Source: a virus (Duplodnaviria > Heunggongvirae > Uroviricota > Caudoviricetes). From it: a stretch of 41,010 bases of DNA. Below are positions 6,295-8,930 of the stretch, piece after piece. The stretch's first letter is position 1, and the number at the start of each line of letters is the position of its first letter. A program made the translations under genes and the position numbers. Below the pieces are notes generated by a model. That model was not told the DNA's origin. It did no database searches and saw only the letters and a program-made list of their open reading frames with translations. Where the stretch lies: the IMG/VR virus record IMGVR_UViG_2529292921_000022; one strand, written 5' to 3'.

Positions 6295-8300
6295 TACGCA
6301 GGTCCTTTCAATTGCTGTACCGCCCTGGCATTTACAGCCCCCTGCTTGTCAGCGATCAGATTAGCCGCCTCCTGAGGGTTGTTAACTCCATGAACATTTA
6401 TAACAGTCTGCTGGTTAAGGCTGCCAGCGGCGGCCTGATACGCCAGCGGGCTGTTCCAGTTTGAATAACCTTCTTTGCGCGCCATCGACTGCATCAATGC
6501 ACCCATAGTCCGGGGATCTGTAAGATTCAATATTGCATTCGGTGATACTCCCATCCATTTCGCAACATCCTGTGCATACTTTTTCGGATCGTTGTTATCA
6601 CCTGCCGGGGCCCAGGTACTGACAATATCCTGAATAGTCTGTAATGCCCGTCCGGTTGTTTTCCCGGTAAAGTAATGCATGAGCTGGTTTTTCATCGCCT
6701 CCCAGCCCTCAAGCGCTGATTCGAAAAACCGGAACCCTTTACCGCTCACCGGGCGAATGTTCCCGGGGTTATTGTTACGATCAGCAAGAGTGCCGCCGCC
6801 GGGGATGTCGGGCTGGACGTTGGAGCCATGCACTACACCGTTACTCTGTCCCTGCCGGATAACTTTACCGGGTCCCCCGTGCAACCAGTCCATCCACGCA
6901 GGCCATTCACGGACCTCACTGACATCCCTGCGTCCGATATCTGTTTTTATACCAATAGCAGCCAGCGTGTCGCCGATAATTCGCTTCGTATACCTCAGTG
7001 AAGATTTTGCGCTATCGGCAATATTTTCTCTGTCACTAACAATATAACCCGCGTAAAGCGCCCACAATTTAAGCCAGGGTGGGATCGGCAAACCTGATAT
7101 TTTTCCGAAAGCCCCCAGAACCTTGGATATCCAGACACCCGCGATGAATGTACCGAGGATTTCCAATGATTTTTGCCATCCCCCCACGCTGTCTTTCAGC
7201 TCGAGTAATTTGTCGCGGAACCAGGTGATCGCATCCTTCGCTTTATCTATTGCCGGTTGCCATTTTTCCCAGTCGATAAGGCTGTTACCGCCTTCTTTCC
7301 ATGTTTTGTAGTCTTCCCACAAGAGACCGAGAGCCACGATCAGACCAGTAATCAGCCCTATAGGTGACATCCAGAAAGTAGAGTTAAGTATCCGCATGGC
7401 GACAACCAGGCCGCCGATAACCTCTATCAGGGTTTTCGTTTCGGCATCCAGTTTCCCCCACCACTCGATGATATCTCCGACACCATCGACTATCCGAAAT
7501 GCTACCCGCCCGACTATCTCACCCAGCCAGAGGATCCCTTTTATGACCTTTGTGATGGTGACTTCAATTTTGGGAAAATTTTCAATTATCTTTTTGCGCA
7601 GGTTATCAATCTGCCCCGCCAGTCCGTCCGCAAGATTCGATCCGATTTTGTCCCGCGCCATCCCGGCCATTTCACCGAGCGATTTCAGCGAGGTCATAAA
7701 CCGGTTTGACGATAAGGCAGCCTGATCGGCATTAAATCCGATCGCTTTCACCATTTCTGAATACTGAGCGCTGAACTGCCCCACTCCGCGACGCATAGCC
7801 ATCAGGGTATTTTCGTCAATGCCCAGCATCTGCGCATACTGGTTAGCCCGGTAATACGGCATGCTGCTGAGTTTCTGTCCAACGCCCGTAAAGATAGCAG
7901 CCATGTCACGCATGTTACCGCTGGCATCACGGGTCTGTACGCCCAGGCGATTCAGAAAGCCTTCTGCTCCGGGATTGTTACGAATAAACCGGGAGAGGCT
8001 TTCCAGAGAAGATCGCGCAGCGTCCACACTGCCGCCAACCTGCGAAACCGCATAGCCAATAGACTGAATTCCCTGGACCGTCGCGCCGGTGCGCTGTGAC
8101 GCCCAGTAAAGATTATCCAGACCGGAGGCGATCTTAGCCGTGAAGGCCACCACGGACAGCGCAGCCCCTTCAACAGCCAGCCCCATTTTGATGACATTTG
8201 CAGTTGTACCGGCGAGGACAGAACCGAACTTTTTCGCTCCTGCATCATCCACACTGAAGCCAAGCGAGACGAGGAAATCTTTAATAGTTTCAGCGTTCAT
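6294..8300 (-). CDS. Tail tape measure protein
   Basis: Long ORF with hydrophobic central segments, downstream of tube and chaperone; ORF-track start at 8321 is TTG, first ATG with SD 'ggagagagg' is at 8300. Confidence 0.65.
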   Translation of the reverse strand: MNAETIKDFLVSLGFSVDDAGAKKFGSVLAGTTANVIKMGLAVEGAALSVVAFTAKIASGLDNLYWASQRTGATVQGIQSIGYAVSQVGGSVDAARSSLESLSRFIRNNPGAEGFLNRLGVQTRDASGNMRDMAAIFTGVGQKLSSMPYYRANQYAQMLGIDENTLMAMRRGVGQFSAQYSEMVKAIGFNADQAALSSNRFMTSLKSLGEMAGMARDKIGSNLADGLAGQIDNLRKKIIENFPKIEVTITKVIKGILWLGEIVGRVAFRIVDGVGDIIEWWGKLDAETKTLIEVIGGLVVAMRILNSTFWMSPIGLITGLIVALGLLWEDYKTWKEGGNSLIDWEKWQPAIDKAKDAITWFRDKLLELKDSVGGWQKSLEILGTFIAGVWISKVLGAFGKISGLPIPPWLKLWALYAGYIVSDRENIADSAKSSLRYTKRIIGDTLAAIGIKTDIGRRDVSEVREWPAWMDWLHGGPGKVIRQGQSNGVVHGSNVQPDIPGGGTLADRNNNPGNIRPVSGKGFRFFESALEGWEAMKNQLMHYFTGKTTGRALQTIQDIVSTWAPAGDNNDPKKYAQDVAKWMGVSPNAILNLTDPRTMGALMQSMARKEGYSNWNSPLAYQAAAGSLNQQTVINVHGVNNPQEAANLIADKQGAVNARAVQQLKGPA

Positions 8301-8529
8301 TATCCTCTCTCCATTTCTCAATGCGCCGCTGGTTATCCGCTTTTACCGCCAGATGGTCATTCAAGAGAGCAATGTCGTACAAATCGACAGAGCCATCTTT
8401 AAGTGCTGTATAAGGAATTAACCCGGCGTCAACCGGATTGAGAAGGTAGGACAGCCCGTCCGGCAGGCTGTTAAACGTCAGCCCTGTTGCAGGCTCTGCG
8501 TCGTGCTGGTAAGGGGTGTAGGCAAAAAA
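8290..8529 (-). CDS. Tail assembly chaperone -1 frameshift extension (lambda G-T-like)
   Basis: Heptamer T_TTT_TTG in zero frame at 8523..8529; the -1 frame stays open about 75 codons to a TGA at 8290..8292, filling the otherwise ORF-free gap. Confidence 0.45.
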   Translation of the reverse strand, partial: FFAYTPYQHDAEPATGLTFNSLPDGLSYLLNPVDAGLIPYTALKDGSVDLYDIALLNDHLAVKADNQRRIEKWREDNER

Positions 8530-8930
8530 TTTCCCAGCGAATCGGCGACCACCCGCGCCACCAGCTGCAGCATGACCAGCAGGTCAATATCATCAAACAT
8601 CAGTTCGCCCCGGGTAAATACCGGCACCCATCCGTCCATATGACGCCGCGATACCACCGCAAGACTGGGATGAATAATCGCATCGGTGTCATCTTCGGTC
8701 AGGGAAGACAGTTCCTCAGCGATACGCGGGAGCATGGTTTCAAACACCGGTTTTAACTGCTCGAATTTCACGGTGTCGATTTTGCCATCAGCAGGCAAAC
8801 GGGAGCGAATGCTCCCGAAATCTGACATCATCCCCGCCAGTACCGGAAGAAGTTTGCGGGTCACTTTCAGCTGGTCAAAAACGCTGAGTTTTGCCGCGCG
8901 ATATTTCACGCCTTTGATTTCGAATTCCAT
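8478..8930 (-). CDS. Tail assembly chaperone (zero-frame product)
   Basis: 150-aa ORF between tube and tape measure; slippery site near its 3' end (see findings). Confidence 0.5.
   Translation of the reverse strand: MEFEIKGVKYRAAKLSVFDQLKVTRKLLPVLAGMMSDFGSIRSRLPADGKIDTVKFEQLKPVFETMLPRIAEELSSLTEDDTDAIIHPSLAVVSRRHMDGWVPVFTRGELMFDDIDLLVMLQLVARVVADSLGNFLPTPLTSTTQSLQQG

What the first reader, a model, noticed from the sequence alone, without database searches (positions are those of the whole stretch)
8290..8930. Probable -1 programmed ribosomal frameshift in the tail assembly chaperone
The 156-nt gap between the chaperone stop (8478) and the tape measure start has no ORF in the track. Near the 3' end of the chaperone the zero frame reads GGA AAT TTT TTG, giving a canonical X_XXY_YYZ heptamer T_TTT_TTG at 8523..8529. 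Translating the -1 frame from there by hand stays open for about 75 codons to a TGA at 8290..8292, which is the organisation of lambda G/GT and equivalents in contractile-tailed phages.
Basis: seen in the sequence. Interest (0 to 1): 0.5.

Follow-up and report, generated by a model that had tools for sequence, protein, structure and literature searches.

The report
Tail chaperone -1 ribosomal frameshift
A prophage tail-assembly chaperone gene almost certainly makes a second, longer protein when some ribosomes slip back one base on TTTTTTG; this is the standard arrangement of tailed phages (lambda G/GT, P2 E/E+E'), so it is real but ordinary.

Summary
On the minus strand the 150-aa chaperone gene (8930..8478) carries T_TTT_TTG (8529..8523) in the right phase. 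From there the -1 frame stays open for 77 codons to TGA 8292..8290, which overlaps the tape-measure ATG (8300). The predicted fusion protein is 213 aa.

Inside this window alone the pattern is not rare: 14 of 82 in-phase heptamers have a -1 run of at least 75 codons. The comparative evidence is what decides it.
- About 70 related loci from phages, Enterobacterales genomes and metagenomes have the extension in the -1 frame.
- It evolves as a protein: pN/pS is 0.38 in the -1 frame against 1.3-1.4 in the other two frames.
- It has no conserved start codon.
- It matches Pfam DUF6889, and the upstream part matches Phage_TAC_15.
- T_TTT is invariant. The codon before the Phe always ends in T, whichever amino acid it encodes.
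- Several relatives have a -1 stop codon directly before TTTTTT, which pins the shift site.
- One distant clade has C_CCT_TTC at the same place.

No conserved downstream RNA structure or upstream SD-like element was found, as reported for P2, which uses the same heptamer. GenBank records of phages Mulock and Magia already annotate this frameshift. RefSeq instead models DUF6889 as a separate CDS starting at CTG. Verdict: supported, a new member of a known kind, low interest.

The parts
8478..8930 (-). Zero-frame tail assembly chaperone gene ('G'), 150 aa
   Evidence: ORF. Pfam PF21822 Phage_TAC_15, E 2.6e-28 over residues 6-136. phrog_1688 'tail assembly chaperone', E 9e-60.
8523..8529 (-). Slippery heptamer T_TTT_TTG in X_XXY_YYZ phase: the proposed -1 shift site
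   Evidence: T_TTT_TTG/T/C is conserved in phase in nearly all intact related loci. In L038, L050, L053, L159-L163 and L165 a -1-frame stop codon lies directly 5' of TTTTTT. P2 uses the same heptamer in E/E+E'.
8523..8535 (-). 13-nt run G_GGA_AAT_TTT_TTG holding three overlapping in-phase heptamers; only the last is conserved family-wide
   Evidence: The upstream two heptamers are lost in L038, L045, L050, L051, L053 and L055-L057.
8290..8523 (-). -1 frame extension ('T'): 77 codons plus TGA. It begins by re-reading G8523 (GCC...). The fusion CDS is join(8930..8523, 8523..8290) = 213 aa
   Evidence: Translation. Codon-position entropy 0.73/0.58/1.35. pN/pS 0.38 in this frame against 1.34 and 1.43 in the other two. 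46 of 57 distinct sequences have no ATG or GTG in the first 25 aligned codons, and none has one in the first 17.
8299..8415 (-). DUF6889 domain within the -1 extension (fusion residues 173-211)
   Evidence: Pfam PF21829, E 8.8e-20. phrog_4364, E 1.8e-23.
6294..8300 (-). Tape measure protein gene. Its ATG at 8300..8298 lies inside the last codons of the -1 extension (11-nt overlap)
   Evidence: phrog_2276 'tail length tape measure protein', E 7e-248. The start is placed at the homologous ATG in annotated relatives.
8304..8312 (-). SD-like GGAGAGAGG ahead of the tape-measure ATG. It also encodes the conserved W-R-E of the extension
   Evidence: Sequence. AAATGGAGAGAGG is conserved in 9 of the 11 loci (the window and 8 of 10 relatives; L009 and L010 differ). 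Its function as an SD is inferred.
8934..9374 (-). Tail tube gene immediately upstream of the chaperone
   Evidence: Pfam PF11681, E 9e-61.
9385..10530 (-). Tail sheath gene
   Evidence: Pfam PF11863 DUF3383, E 9e-101. phrog_205 'tail sheath', E 3e-135.

Best explanation
This is a -1 programmed ribosomal frameshift in the tail assembly chaperone gene of a contractile-tailed temperate phage or prophage of E. coli.

Mechanism. Most ribosomes read the zero frame to the TGA at 8480..8478 and make the 150-aa chaperone 'G' (Phage_TAC_15). A minority slip back one base when tRNA-Phe (UUU) is in the P site and tRNA-Leu (UUG) is in the A site on U_UUU_UUG (8529..8523). They re-pair on UUU UUU and continue in the -1 frame for 77 codons. 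The result is a 213-aa 'GT' protein, ...SLGNFL-AYTPYQHD...KWREDNER, whose C-terminal part is the DUF6889 domain.

What is shown by comparison: the shift site, the frame, and selection acting on the extension.

What is inferred by analogy with lambda G/GT and P2 E/E+E':
- G and the G part of GT coat the tape measure protein.
- The T (DUF6889) part recruits the tube protein.
- The two products are needed in a fixed ratio.
- Neither product ends up in the virion.

No stimulatory RNA element was found, so the heptamer alone probably sets a low shift rate. The rate is unknown.
For: 1. Sequence: in-phase T_TTT_TTG, 77 open -1 codons, and a -1 stop that overlaps the tape-measure ATG.

2. Gene order: sheath, tube, chaperone, tape measure.

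3. Frame use in relatives. In 10 phages, 55 species-level genome loci and 13 informative metagenome loci:
- the extension is always in the -1 frame;
- it is open about 188 nt past the G stop in nearly all intact loci;
- the +1 frame usually closes within 7-50 nt.

4. Coding signature of the -1 frame in 57 distinct sequences:
- third-position entropy is 1.35, against 0.73 and 0.58 at positions 1 and 2;
- pN/pS is 0.38, against 1.34 and 1.43 in the other frames;
- in the first 11 codons after the heptamer, the -1 frame gives 0.51 and the zero frame 1.25.

5. The extension is a recognised protein family (PF21829 DUF6889, E 8.8e-20; phrog_4364).

6. It has no conserved start codon. RefSeq has to use a CTG to model it as a separate CDS.

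7. Synonymous-site conservation of the slippery site in 23 distinct contexts:
- the Phe codon is always TTT;
- the preceding codon always ends in T across six codons (AAT, GAT, AGT, GGT, CCT, TCT);
- the next codon is TTG, TTT or TTC in 21 of 23.

8. A -1 stop codon lies directly before TTTTTT in several relatives, so the shift cannot be further upstream there.

9. A distant clade has C_CCT_TTC, another slippery heptamer, at the homologous place. Sharma 2014 (PMC4066793) lists it as a high-level frameshifter.

10. All 80 close IMG/VR relatives have T6-G.

11. P2 E/E+E' uses TTTTTTG in the same gene position in a contractile-tail phage (PMC3091744; NC_001895 annotation and sequence).

12. The GenBank records of Klebsiella phage Mulock and Burkholderia phage Magia annotate the homologous 'tape measure chaperone frameshift product'.
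Against: - No protein-level or reporter data exist for this family. DUF6889 occurs in no paper of the held library.
- U_UUU_UUG is not in the Sharma et al. list of 18 under-represented heptamers that exceed 0.1% frameshifting without stimulators, although U_UUU_UUC and U_UUU_UUU are.
- No conserved downstream structure was found. The RNAalifold consensus is -0.47 kcal/mol with no covariation, the single-sequence fold has z = -0.14, and there is no Rfam match.
- No upstream SD-like element is conserved: the bases upstream of the heptamer vary among relatives. The efficiency could therefore be very low.
- In the window alone a heptamer with a long -1 run is not statistically unusual.
- In this particular phage the two upstream heptamers could also contribute.
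Confidence: 0.9

Rival explanations
1. The extension is a separate small gene (a DUF6889 family protein of about 54 aa) translated from its own start codon, as RefSeq/PGAP and some phage records model it. No frameshift is involved.
For: RefSeq E. coli records annotate a separate 'DUF6889 family protein' (WP_071819661.1) between the chaperone and the tape measure. Phages GZ7 and yong1 annotate 58-aa ORFs there. Pfam's DUF6889 model covers only the last 40 residues.
Against: - The RefSeq CDS has to start at a CTG (window 8454).
- In the window the -1 frame has no ATG or GTG after the heptamer.
- 46 of 57 distinct relatives lack ATG or GTG in the first 25 aligned codons, and no alignment column has a conserved start.
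- Purifying selection in the -1 frame begins at the heptamer, about 25 codons upstream of any modelled start (conserved ARTPRQRD; pN/pS 0.51 against 1.25 for the zero frame).
- The slippery run is conserved at synonymous sites, which independent initiation does not explain.
Confidence: 0.04
2. The frame change happens at the RNA level. RNA polymerase stutters on the T6 run, adds one U, and a fraction of mRNAs then encode GT in a single frame (transcriptional slippage).
For: The site is a homopolymer run: T6 here, T7 in some relatives. Sequence comparison alone cannot separate the two mechanisms, because the phase is fixed by homology. Rare public assemblies carry T7, which gives a single 213-aa ORF (P0001, E. 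coli ISC7 CDL28562.1).
Against: - From general knowledge, not tested here: efficient slippage by bacterial RNA polymerase is described for runs of about 8-9 or more A or T, and 6 is short.
- A distant clade has C_CCT_TTC, which has no homopolymer run of that kind but is a canonical ribosomal heptamer.
- Other distant relatives keep only T_TTT.
- The identical heptamer in P2 is annotated and cited as a translational frameshift.
- The T7 and T5 variants are few (a cluster of 16 members, only some of them full-length fusions, against over 1000 sequences for the 150-aa form) and look like homopolymer errors or mutants.
Confidence: 0.04
3. In this phage the shift occurs partly or mainly on one of the two upstream overlapping heptamers (G_GGA_AAT or A_AAT_TTT) rather than on T_TTT_TTG. 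That would give ...GNFF-AYTPYQ... instead of ...GNFL-AYTPYQ....
For: All three heptamers are in phase within G_GGA_AAT_TTT_TTG (8535..8523), and the full 13-mer is kept in most Enterobacterales loci. G_GGA_AAG is the lambda site (general knowledge). The -1 frame is open across all three in the window.
Against: - The upstream heptamers are absent in many relatives that keep the -1 extension.
- In several relatives a -1 stop codon lies just before TTTTTT and blocks them.
- In L008 and L009 the -1 frame opens only 3 nt before GGGAAAT.
- These points rest.
- The A-site codon AAU does not allow cognate re-pairing on AAA, which Sharma 2014 gives as the main rule for efficient bacterial motifs (abstract).
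Confidence: 0.1
4. The -1 ORF is not expressed. It is a chance open frame or a decaying remnant in a cryptic prophage.
For: Long -1 runs after in-phase heptamers are common in this window (14 of 82). Some related prophage loci are visibly degraded (L019, L032, L047, L052, L058).
Against: There is a strong protein-coding signature in the -1 frame across 57 distinct sequences. The extension matches a Pfam and a PHROG family. It is conserved in isolated, viable phages: SEN34, YP3, vB_EcoM-606R2, and Mulock, which was shown to be a myophage by electron microscopy (PMC6856289).
Confidence: 0.01

Closest known systems
Phage P2 E / E+E' (-1 frameshift in the FETUD tail operon; Christie et al. 2002, Xu et al. 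2004, as cited in PMC3091744)
   Same: - Contractile-tail phage of E. coli.
- The chaperone gene lies directly between the tube gene and the tape-measure gene.
- The heptamer is identical: T_TTT_TTG in phase (GGT TTT TTG in P2).
- The short -1 extension ends over the tape-measure ATG.
- No downstream stimulatory structure is reported for P2.
- Domain plan: a TAC domain followed by a C-terminal extension family of about 40 aa.

   Different: - No detectable sequence relationship. P2 E+E' matches PF10109 Phage_TAC_7 and PF06528 Phage_P2_GpE, whereas this protein matches PF21822 and PF21829.
- BLASTP gives E 0.17 for the G parts and no alignment for the extensions. hhalign gives probability 0.3%.
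- The proteins here are larger (150/213 aa against 91/142 aa).
- The heptamer lies 51 nt before the zero-frame stop here, against 18 nt in P2.
- P2 is experimentally proven. This case is not.
Phage lambda G / GT
   Same: [quoted passage not shown]
- Role in lambda: G and the G part of GT bind the tape measure, and the T part binds the major tail protein.
- The G:GT ratio is about 30:1.
- Neither product is in the virion.
(review PMC5009743)
   Different: - Lambda has a non-contractile tail.
- Its slippery heptamer is G_GGA_AAG (general knowledge), not T_TTT_TTG.
- No Pfam family of lambda G or T is reported for this protein at E <= 0.01.
- The functions of G and T here are inferred, not tested.
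Annotated homologues: Klebsiella phage Mulock CPT_Mulock_014/015 (QFG06716.1 / QFG06717.1) and Burkholderia phage Magia CPT_Magia_015/016
   Same: - Same protein family and the same gene order.
- GenBank carries a joined CDS labelled 'tape measure chaperone frameshift product'.
- Mulock has the identical G_GGA_AAT_TTT_TTG run.

   Different: - These are annotation calls without experiments.
- The Mulock announcement does not mention the frameshift.
- The DNA stretch compared (window 8200-9000) is about 67% identical to Mulock.
- Most other records of the family lack the joined CDS, including RefSeq E. coli, SEN34, YP3 and the vB_EcoM phages.
dnaX tau/gamma and IS3/IS911-type -1 frameshifts in E. 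coli
   Same: Tandem tRNA slippage on an X_XXY_YYZ heptamer by the E. coli ribosome.
   Different: Those signals use A_AAA_AAG-type heptamers together with a downstream hairpin or pseudoknot and/or an upstream SD-like element (PMC4066793). Here no conserved stimulator was found. Also, the shifted product here is the longer one.

Membership tests
G/GT-type tail assembly chaperone frameshift (Xu, Hendrix & Duda 2004 class) | The gene pair lies between the major tail (tube) gene and the tape-measure gene | tested here: met
   Order is sheath 9385..10530, tube 8934..9374, chaperone 8478..8930, tape measure 6294..8300, all on the minus strand.
G/GT-type tail assembly chaperone frameshift (Xu, Hendrix & Duda 2004 class) | A second ORF overlaps the 3' end of the first in another frame and lacks its own translation start | tested here: met
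   The -1 frame is open over 8583..8290. The window has no ATG or GTG in it after the heptamer. No start is conserved in 57 relatives. RefSeq needs a CTG to model a start.
G/GT-type tail assembly chaperone frameshift (Xu, Hendrix & Duda 2004 class) | An in-phase slippery sequence lies in the overlap and is conserved among relatives | tested here: met
   T_TTT_TTG at 8529..8523. T_TTT is invariant, and T_TTT_TTN is present in 21 of 23 distinct contexts. One clade has C_CCT_TTC instead.
G/GT-type tail assembly chaperone frameshift (Xu, Hendrix & Duda 2004 class) | The shifted frame is a real coding sequence | tested here: met
   pN/pS is 0.38 in the -1 frame against 1.34 and 1.43 in the others. 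Matches PF21829 and phrog_4364.
G/GT-type tail assembly chaperone frameshift (Xu, Hendrix & Duda 2004 class) | Two proteins with a common N-terminus are made in a fixed ratio | not testable with these tools
   Needs western blot, mass spectrometry or reporter assays.
G/GT-type tail assembly chaperone frameshift (Xu, Hendrix & Duda 2004 class) | Both products are required for tail assembly and are absent from virions | not testable with these tools
   Needs genetics and virion proteomics.
Pfam PF21822 Phage_TAC_15 | Score above the family's gathering threshold | tested here: met
   99.5 bits against a cut-off of 22, E 2.6e-28, residues 6-136.
Pfam PF21829 DUF6889 | Score above the family's gathering threshold, for the -1 frame extension | tested here: met
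   70.6 bits against a cut-off of 23.9, E 8.8e-20, fusion residues 173-211.
P2 gpE / gpE+E' protein families (PF10109 Phage_TAC_7, PF06528 Phage_P2_GpE) | Sequence homology to P2 E and E' | tested here: not met
   Neither family appears for the window protein at E <= 0.01. BLASTP gives E 0.17 for the G parts and no alignment for the extensions. hhalign gives probability 0.3%. The two are analogous, not demonstrably homologous.
Stimulated bacterial -1 PRF signals (dnaX / IS3 type) | A conserved downstream hairpin or pseudoknot 5-9 nt after the heptamer, or an SD-like element 6-17 nt upstream | tested here: not met
   RNAalifold on 22 diverse sequences gives 2 invariant pairs, -0.47 kcal/mol and no covariation. 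The fold of the 93 nt downstream has z = -0.14. No Rfam match. The upstream bases are not conserved among relatives.

The most novel reading that the evidence does not exclude
The least ordinary reading still open has two parts.

1. The 13-nt run G_GGA_AAT_TTT_TTG may not be an accident of the G-N-F-L codons. It could be a stimulator-free, multi-site 'slippery ramp': three overlapping in-phase heptamers each contribute, and together they set the G:GT ratio and give two junction isoforms (FF-A and FL-A).

2. The family may tune or abandon this ratio in different ways in different lineages. Observed variants are T_TTT only, C_CCT_TTC, and rare single-ORF G-T fusions such as P0251 and P0239, whose junctions have no Phe-Phe.

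None of this is shown. The fused forms are clusters of 1-3 members and may be indel artefacts.
Probability: 0.12. Interest if true: 0.4.

Novelty: new member of a known kind. Interest (0 to 1): 0.2.

Why it matters
The main value is correct annotation.
- At least 300 complete E. coli genomes carry this prophage module, as do many other Enterobacterales genomes.
- In 11 of 12 sampled RefSeq rows the extension is listed as an unexplained 'DUF6889 family protein'. The one record checked base by base starts that CDS at CTG.
- Other records leave the stretch as an empty gap.
- The evidence here says DUF6889 is the frameshift-encoded C-terminal ('T') domain of a Phage_TAC_15 tail assembly chaperone, which gives a role to a domain of unknown function.

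It also adds a well-supported comparative example: a contractile-tail chaperone frameshift that uses the same heptamer as P2, has no detectable RNA stimulator, and shows heptamer turnover between clades. It does not change any concept in the field.

Tried and rejected
- Downstream stimulatory structure. Per-sequence RNAfold, RNAalifold on 22 diverse sequences, a z-score test and Rfam found nothing conserved. The 8-bp hairpin at 8471..8451 starts 52 nt after the heptamer, is confined to one clade, and is too far away to act as a classical stimulator.
- Upstream SD-like element. The GGGAAA just 5' of the heptamer is replaced by GGTAGT, GGCGGT, GGTGAT and others in relatives.
- Structure of the fusion. 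The single-sequence AlphaFold model was unusable (mean pLDDT 40), so no fold search was run. The PDB sequence search found nothing.
- Homology of the extension to P2 E'. BLASTP and hhalign were negative, despite the shared ...WRE...NE* ending and the shared overlap with the tape-measure ATG.
- Fused single-ORF homologues as 'Rosetta stone' evidence. Close 213-aa ORFs (P0001, P0121) are T7 homopolymer variants. Seven distant fused proteins are clusters of 1-3 members. Their DNA could not be recovered: two viral-contig scans and one metagenome scan returned only -1 frameshifted relatives. This was left undecided and is not used as evidence.
- Christie et al. 2002 (PMC135442) is not held. The P2 shift frequency is therefore not cited, and P2 facts come from PMC3091744 and the NC_001895 record.
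- Statistical significance from the window alone was rejected.
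Full report
**1. What is in the sequence**

The finding lies in a minus-strand tail module:
- sheath, 9385..10530 (PF11863, phrog_205);
- tube, 8934..9374 (PF11681);
- a 150-aa ORF, 8478..8930;
- tape measure, 6294..8300 (phrog_2276).

The 150-aa ORF ends ...SLGNFLPTPLTSTTQSLQQG*. Its zero frame reads GGA AAT TTT TTG, so T_TTT_TTG lies at 8529..8523 in the X_XXY_YYZ phase.

The -1 frame is open from 8583 to TGA 8292..8290. A shift on the heptamer gives 136 + 77 = 213 aa. After the heptamer that frame has no ATG or GTG.

The -1 stop overlaps the tape-measure ATG at 8300 (GATAATGAACGCTGA). Annotated homologues use the ATG, which makes the gap 177 nt.

The heptamer is the last of three overlapping in-phase heptamers in G_GGA_AAT_TTT_TTG (8535..8523).

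**2. Is it more than chance?**

Not from the window alone. Of 82 in-phase heptamers in ORFs of at least 100 aa on both strands, 14 are followed by 75 or more open -1 codons. I therefore collected relatives:
- 10 phage records at 66-98% DNA identity;
- 55 loci from one-genome-per-species bacterial contigs at 36-81% protein identity;
- 80 close IMG/VR contigs;
- 16 metagenome loci of a distant clade.

**3. Comparative evidence**

*Frame use.* In nearly all intact loci the -1 frame stays open about 188 nt past the chaperone stop and ends over the tape-measure start. The +1 frame usually closes within 7-50 nt. The few exceptions look like decayed prophages or indels (L019, L032, L047, L052, L058).

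*Coding signature.* The -1 peptide aligns well across 57 distinct sequences: ARTPRQRD...LPDG..YL.RPVDAG.IPYTALKDGSVDL.DIA.MND.L..KADN..RI.KWRE.NER. One search gives:
- entropy by codon position 0.73, 0.58 and 1.35;
- pN/pS after the chaperone stop of 0.38 in the -1 frame, against 1.34 (zero frame) and 1.43 (+1 frame);
- pN/pS in the 11 codons right after the heptamer, where both frames are translated, of 0.51 in the -1 frame and 1.25 in the zero frame.

Translation in the -1 frame therefore starts at the heptamer, and the chaperone's own tail after it is not conserved as protein.

*Protein families.* The N-terminal part matches Pfam Phage_TAC_15 (E 2.6e-28). The extension matches DUF6889 (E 8.8e-20) and phrog_4364.

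*No own start.* 46 of 57 sequences lack ATG or GTG in the first 25 aligned extension codons, and none has one in the first 17. RefSeq models a separate 54-aa 'DUF6889 family protein' that begins at a CTG, window position 8454.

*The slippery site is selected as nucleotides* (23 distinct contexts):
- the Phe codon is always TTT;
- the codon before it always ends in T, although it encodes five different amino acids (AAT, GAT, AGT, GGT, CCT, TCT);
- the next codon is TTG, TTT or TTC in 21 of 23.

*The site is pinned.* The two upstream heptamers are missing in L038, L045, L050, L051, L053 and L055-L057. In L038, L050, L053, L159-L163 and L165 a -1 stop codon (TAG, TAA or TGA) lies directly before TTTTTT.

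*Heptamer turnover.* A distant GC-richer clade (L153, L157) has GGC CCT TTC, that is C_CCT_TTC, at the homologous place. The conserved -1 peptide follows it. Sharma et al. 2014 list C_CC.U_UU.C as a high-level frameshifter in E. coli (PMC4066793). Other distant loci keep only T_TTT (L061-L063, L148, L158).

*Run length.* All 80 close IMG/VR relatives have exactly T6-G.

**4. Stimulators**

None was found:
- RNAalifold on 22 diverse sequences gives no consensus structure (-0.47 kcal/mol, no covariation);
- the 93 nt downstream fold no better than shuffles (z = -0.14);
- Rfam has no match;
- the bases upstream of the heptamer are not conserved.

The same absence is reported for P2 and P2-like phages (PMC3091744). 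According to Sharma et al., UUN A-site codons are shift-prone. U_UUU_UUC and U_UUU_UUU are on their list of efficient, under-represented motifs, and U_UUU_UUG is not. I therefore expect a low rate, but cannot give a number.

**5. Mechanism proposed**

Most ribosomes terminate at 8480..8478 and make the 150-aa chaperone. A minority slip back by one base on U_UUU_UUG, with tRNA-Phe in the P site and tRNA-Leu in the A site. They then read GCC UAC ACC... and make the 213-aa fusion.

The following steps are inferred by analogy with lambda (review PMC5009743):
- the shared N-terminal domain coats the tape measure;
- the DUF6889 part recruits the tube protein;
- the ratio of the two products matters.

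The shift site, the frame and the selection on the extension are shown by comparison. The proteins themselves are not shown.

**6. Rivals**

- Separate initiation: about 0.04. It is contradicted by the lack of starts and by selection that begins at the heptamer.
- Transcriptional slippage on T6: about 0.04. It cannot be excluded by sequence, but the run is short, and one clade uses C_CCT_TTC, which has no such run.
- Shift on the upstream heptamers in this phage, about 0.1 as a contribution. It would change one residue (FF-A instead of FL-A).
- Unexpressed remnant: about 0.01. It is refuted.

**7. Comparison with known systems**

*P2 E/E+E'* is the closest analogue.
- Shared: a contractile tail, the same gene position, and the identical in-phase heptamer (GGT TTT TTG).
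- Shared: the annotated -1 site at 19685, and an E+E' end that overlaps the tape-measure start.
- Its domains are Phage_TAC_7 plus Phage_P2_GpE.
- I found no sequence relationship to the window proteins. It works like P2 E/E+E' but is not a member of those families.

*Within the same family*, the GenBank records of Klebsiella phage Mulock (QFG06717.1) and Burkholderia phage Magia already carry a joined 'tape measure chaperone frameshift product' CDS. The Mulock paper does not discuss it. Most other records do not carry it, including SEN34, YP3, the vB_EcoM phages and RefSeq E. coli.

**8. Side results**

- Rare public assemblies carry T7, which gives a single 213-aa ORF reading ...GNFFAYTPYQ... 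(P0001; E. coli ISC7 CDL28562.1). Others carry T5 (P0002). These are few (a 16-member cluster, only part of it full-length fusions) beside over 1000 sequences of the 150-aa form, and they look like homopolymer errors or mutants.
- Seven distant proteins of 191-210 aa span both domains in one ORF. Each is a cluster of 1-3 members, and I could not recover their DNA. All 13 informative metagenome relatives are -1 frameshifted. I do not use the fused forms as evidence.

**9. Verdict**

This is a standard G/GT-type -1 programmed frameshift: a new member of a known kind, and already predicted in two homologous phage records. Its practical value is to correct annotation and to assign DUF6889 as the frameshift-encoded C-terminal domain of a Phage_TAC_15 chaperone. 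Interest is low (0.2). Confidence in the mechanism is about 0.9, pending protein-level proof.

Noticed in passing
window 8290..8454 (-); L147 1747..1911: RefSeq/PGAP annotates the extension as a separate 54-aa 'DUF6889 family protein' (WP_071819661.1). In the record read base by base (BCE049) it starts at a CTG codon. 11 of 12 sampled E. coli genomes list such a feature, out of 337 with a match. This looks like a systematic mis-model of a frameshift product.
   Followed up: yes
window 8298..8321 (-): The mechanical ORF list starts the tape measure at TTG 8321, but homologues and RefSeq start it at ATG 8300. An SD-like GGAGAGAGG (8312..8304) precedes the ATG and also encodes the conserved W-R-E of the extension, so these bases are under two constraints at once.
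   Followed up: partly
window 8451..8471 (-): An 8-bp hairpin (ACAGCCTG CCGGA CGGGCTGT) lies just after the chaperone stop, 52 nt downstream of the heptamer. It is present in the E. coli/Salmonella clade. Some other clades have a different hairpin near the same position. It is not conserved as a structure family-wide and is too far away to be a classical frameshift stimulator.
   Followed up: partly
L011 2477..2495; proteins P0001, P0121, P0002: Some public assemblies have T7 (a single 213-aa fused ORF; E. coli ISC7 CDL28562.1) or T5 (a +1-frame tail) instead of T6 at the slippery run. These are homopolymer errors or natural mutants.
   Followed up: partly
proteins P0157, P0199, P0251, P0259, P0258, P0239, P0266: Distant proteins (32-42% identity) of 191-210 aa carry the TAC_15-like and DUF6889-like parts in one continuous ORF. 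Two of them have no Phe-Phe at the junction. Each belongs to a cluster of 1-3 members. It is undecided whether they are natural fusions or indel artefacts.
   Followed up: partly
L153 and L157 (about 40 nt before the chaperone stop); L061-L063, L148, L158: The slippery site turns over between clades. L153 and L157 have C_CCT_TTC one codon upstream of the usual place. L061-L063, L148 and L158 keep only a T_TTT tetramer (CCT TTT ATT, AGT TTT ATG, AGT TTT ATA). All keep the conserved -1 extension.
   Followed up: partly
L009 (OM284015.1 'Elizabethkingia phage EKP1'); L023 (CACSKA010000001.1 'Chryseobacterium sp. 18061'): Records labelled as Flavobacteriia phage or genome carry this Enterobacterales-type tail module: about 71% DNA identity for L009 and 67% protein identity for L023, both with the same slippery run. 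Host mislabelling or contamination seems likely.
   Followed up: no
window 6294..8300 (-), C-terminal third: The tape measure protein carries a C-terminal lytic transglycosylase-like region. RefSeq names the whole protein 'lytic transglycosylase catalytic', and phrog_873 'endolysin' matches residues 488-667.
   Followed up: no
window 37981..37987 (-), 30423..30432 (-), 28200..28206 (-), 532..538 (+): Other in-phase X_XXY_YYZ heptamers are followed by -1 runs of 92-125 codons. The ORF 37861..38220 (-) lies wholly inside the longer plus-strand ORF 37357..38409 in the ORF list; the others were not examined at all. Not followed up.
   Followed up: no
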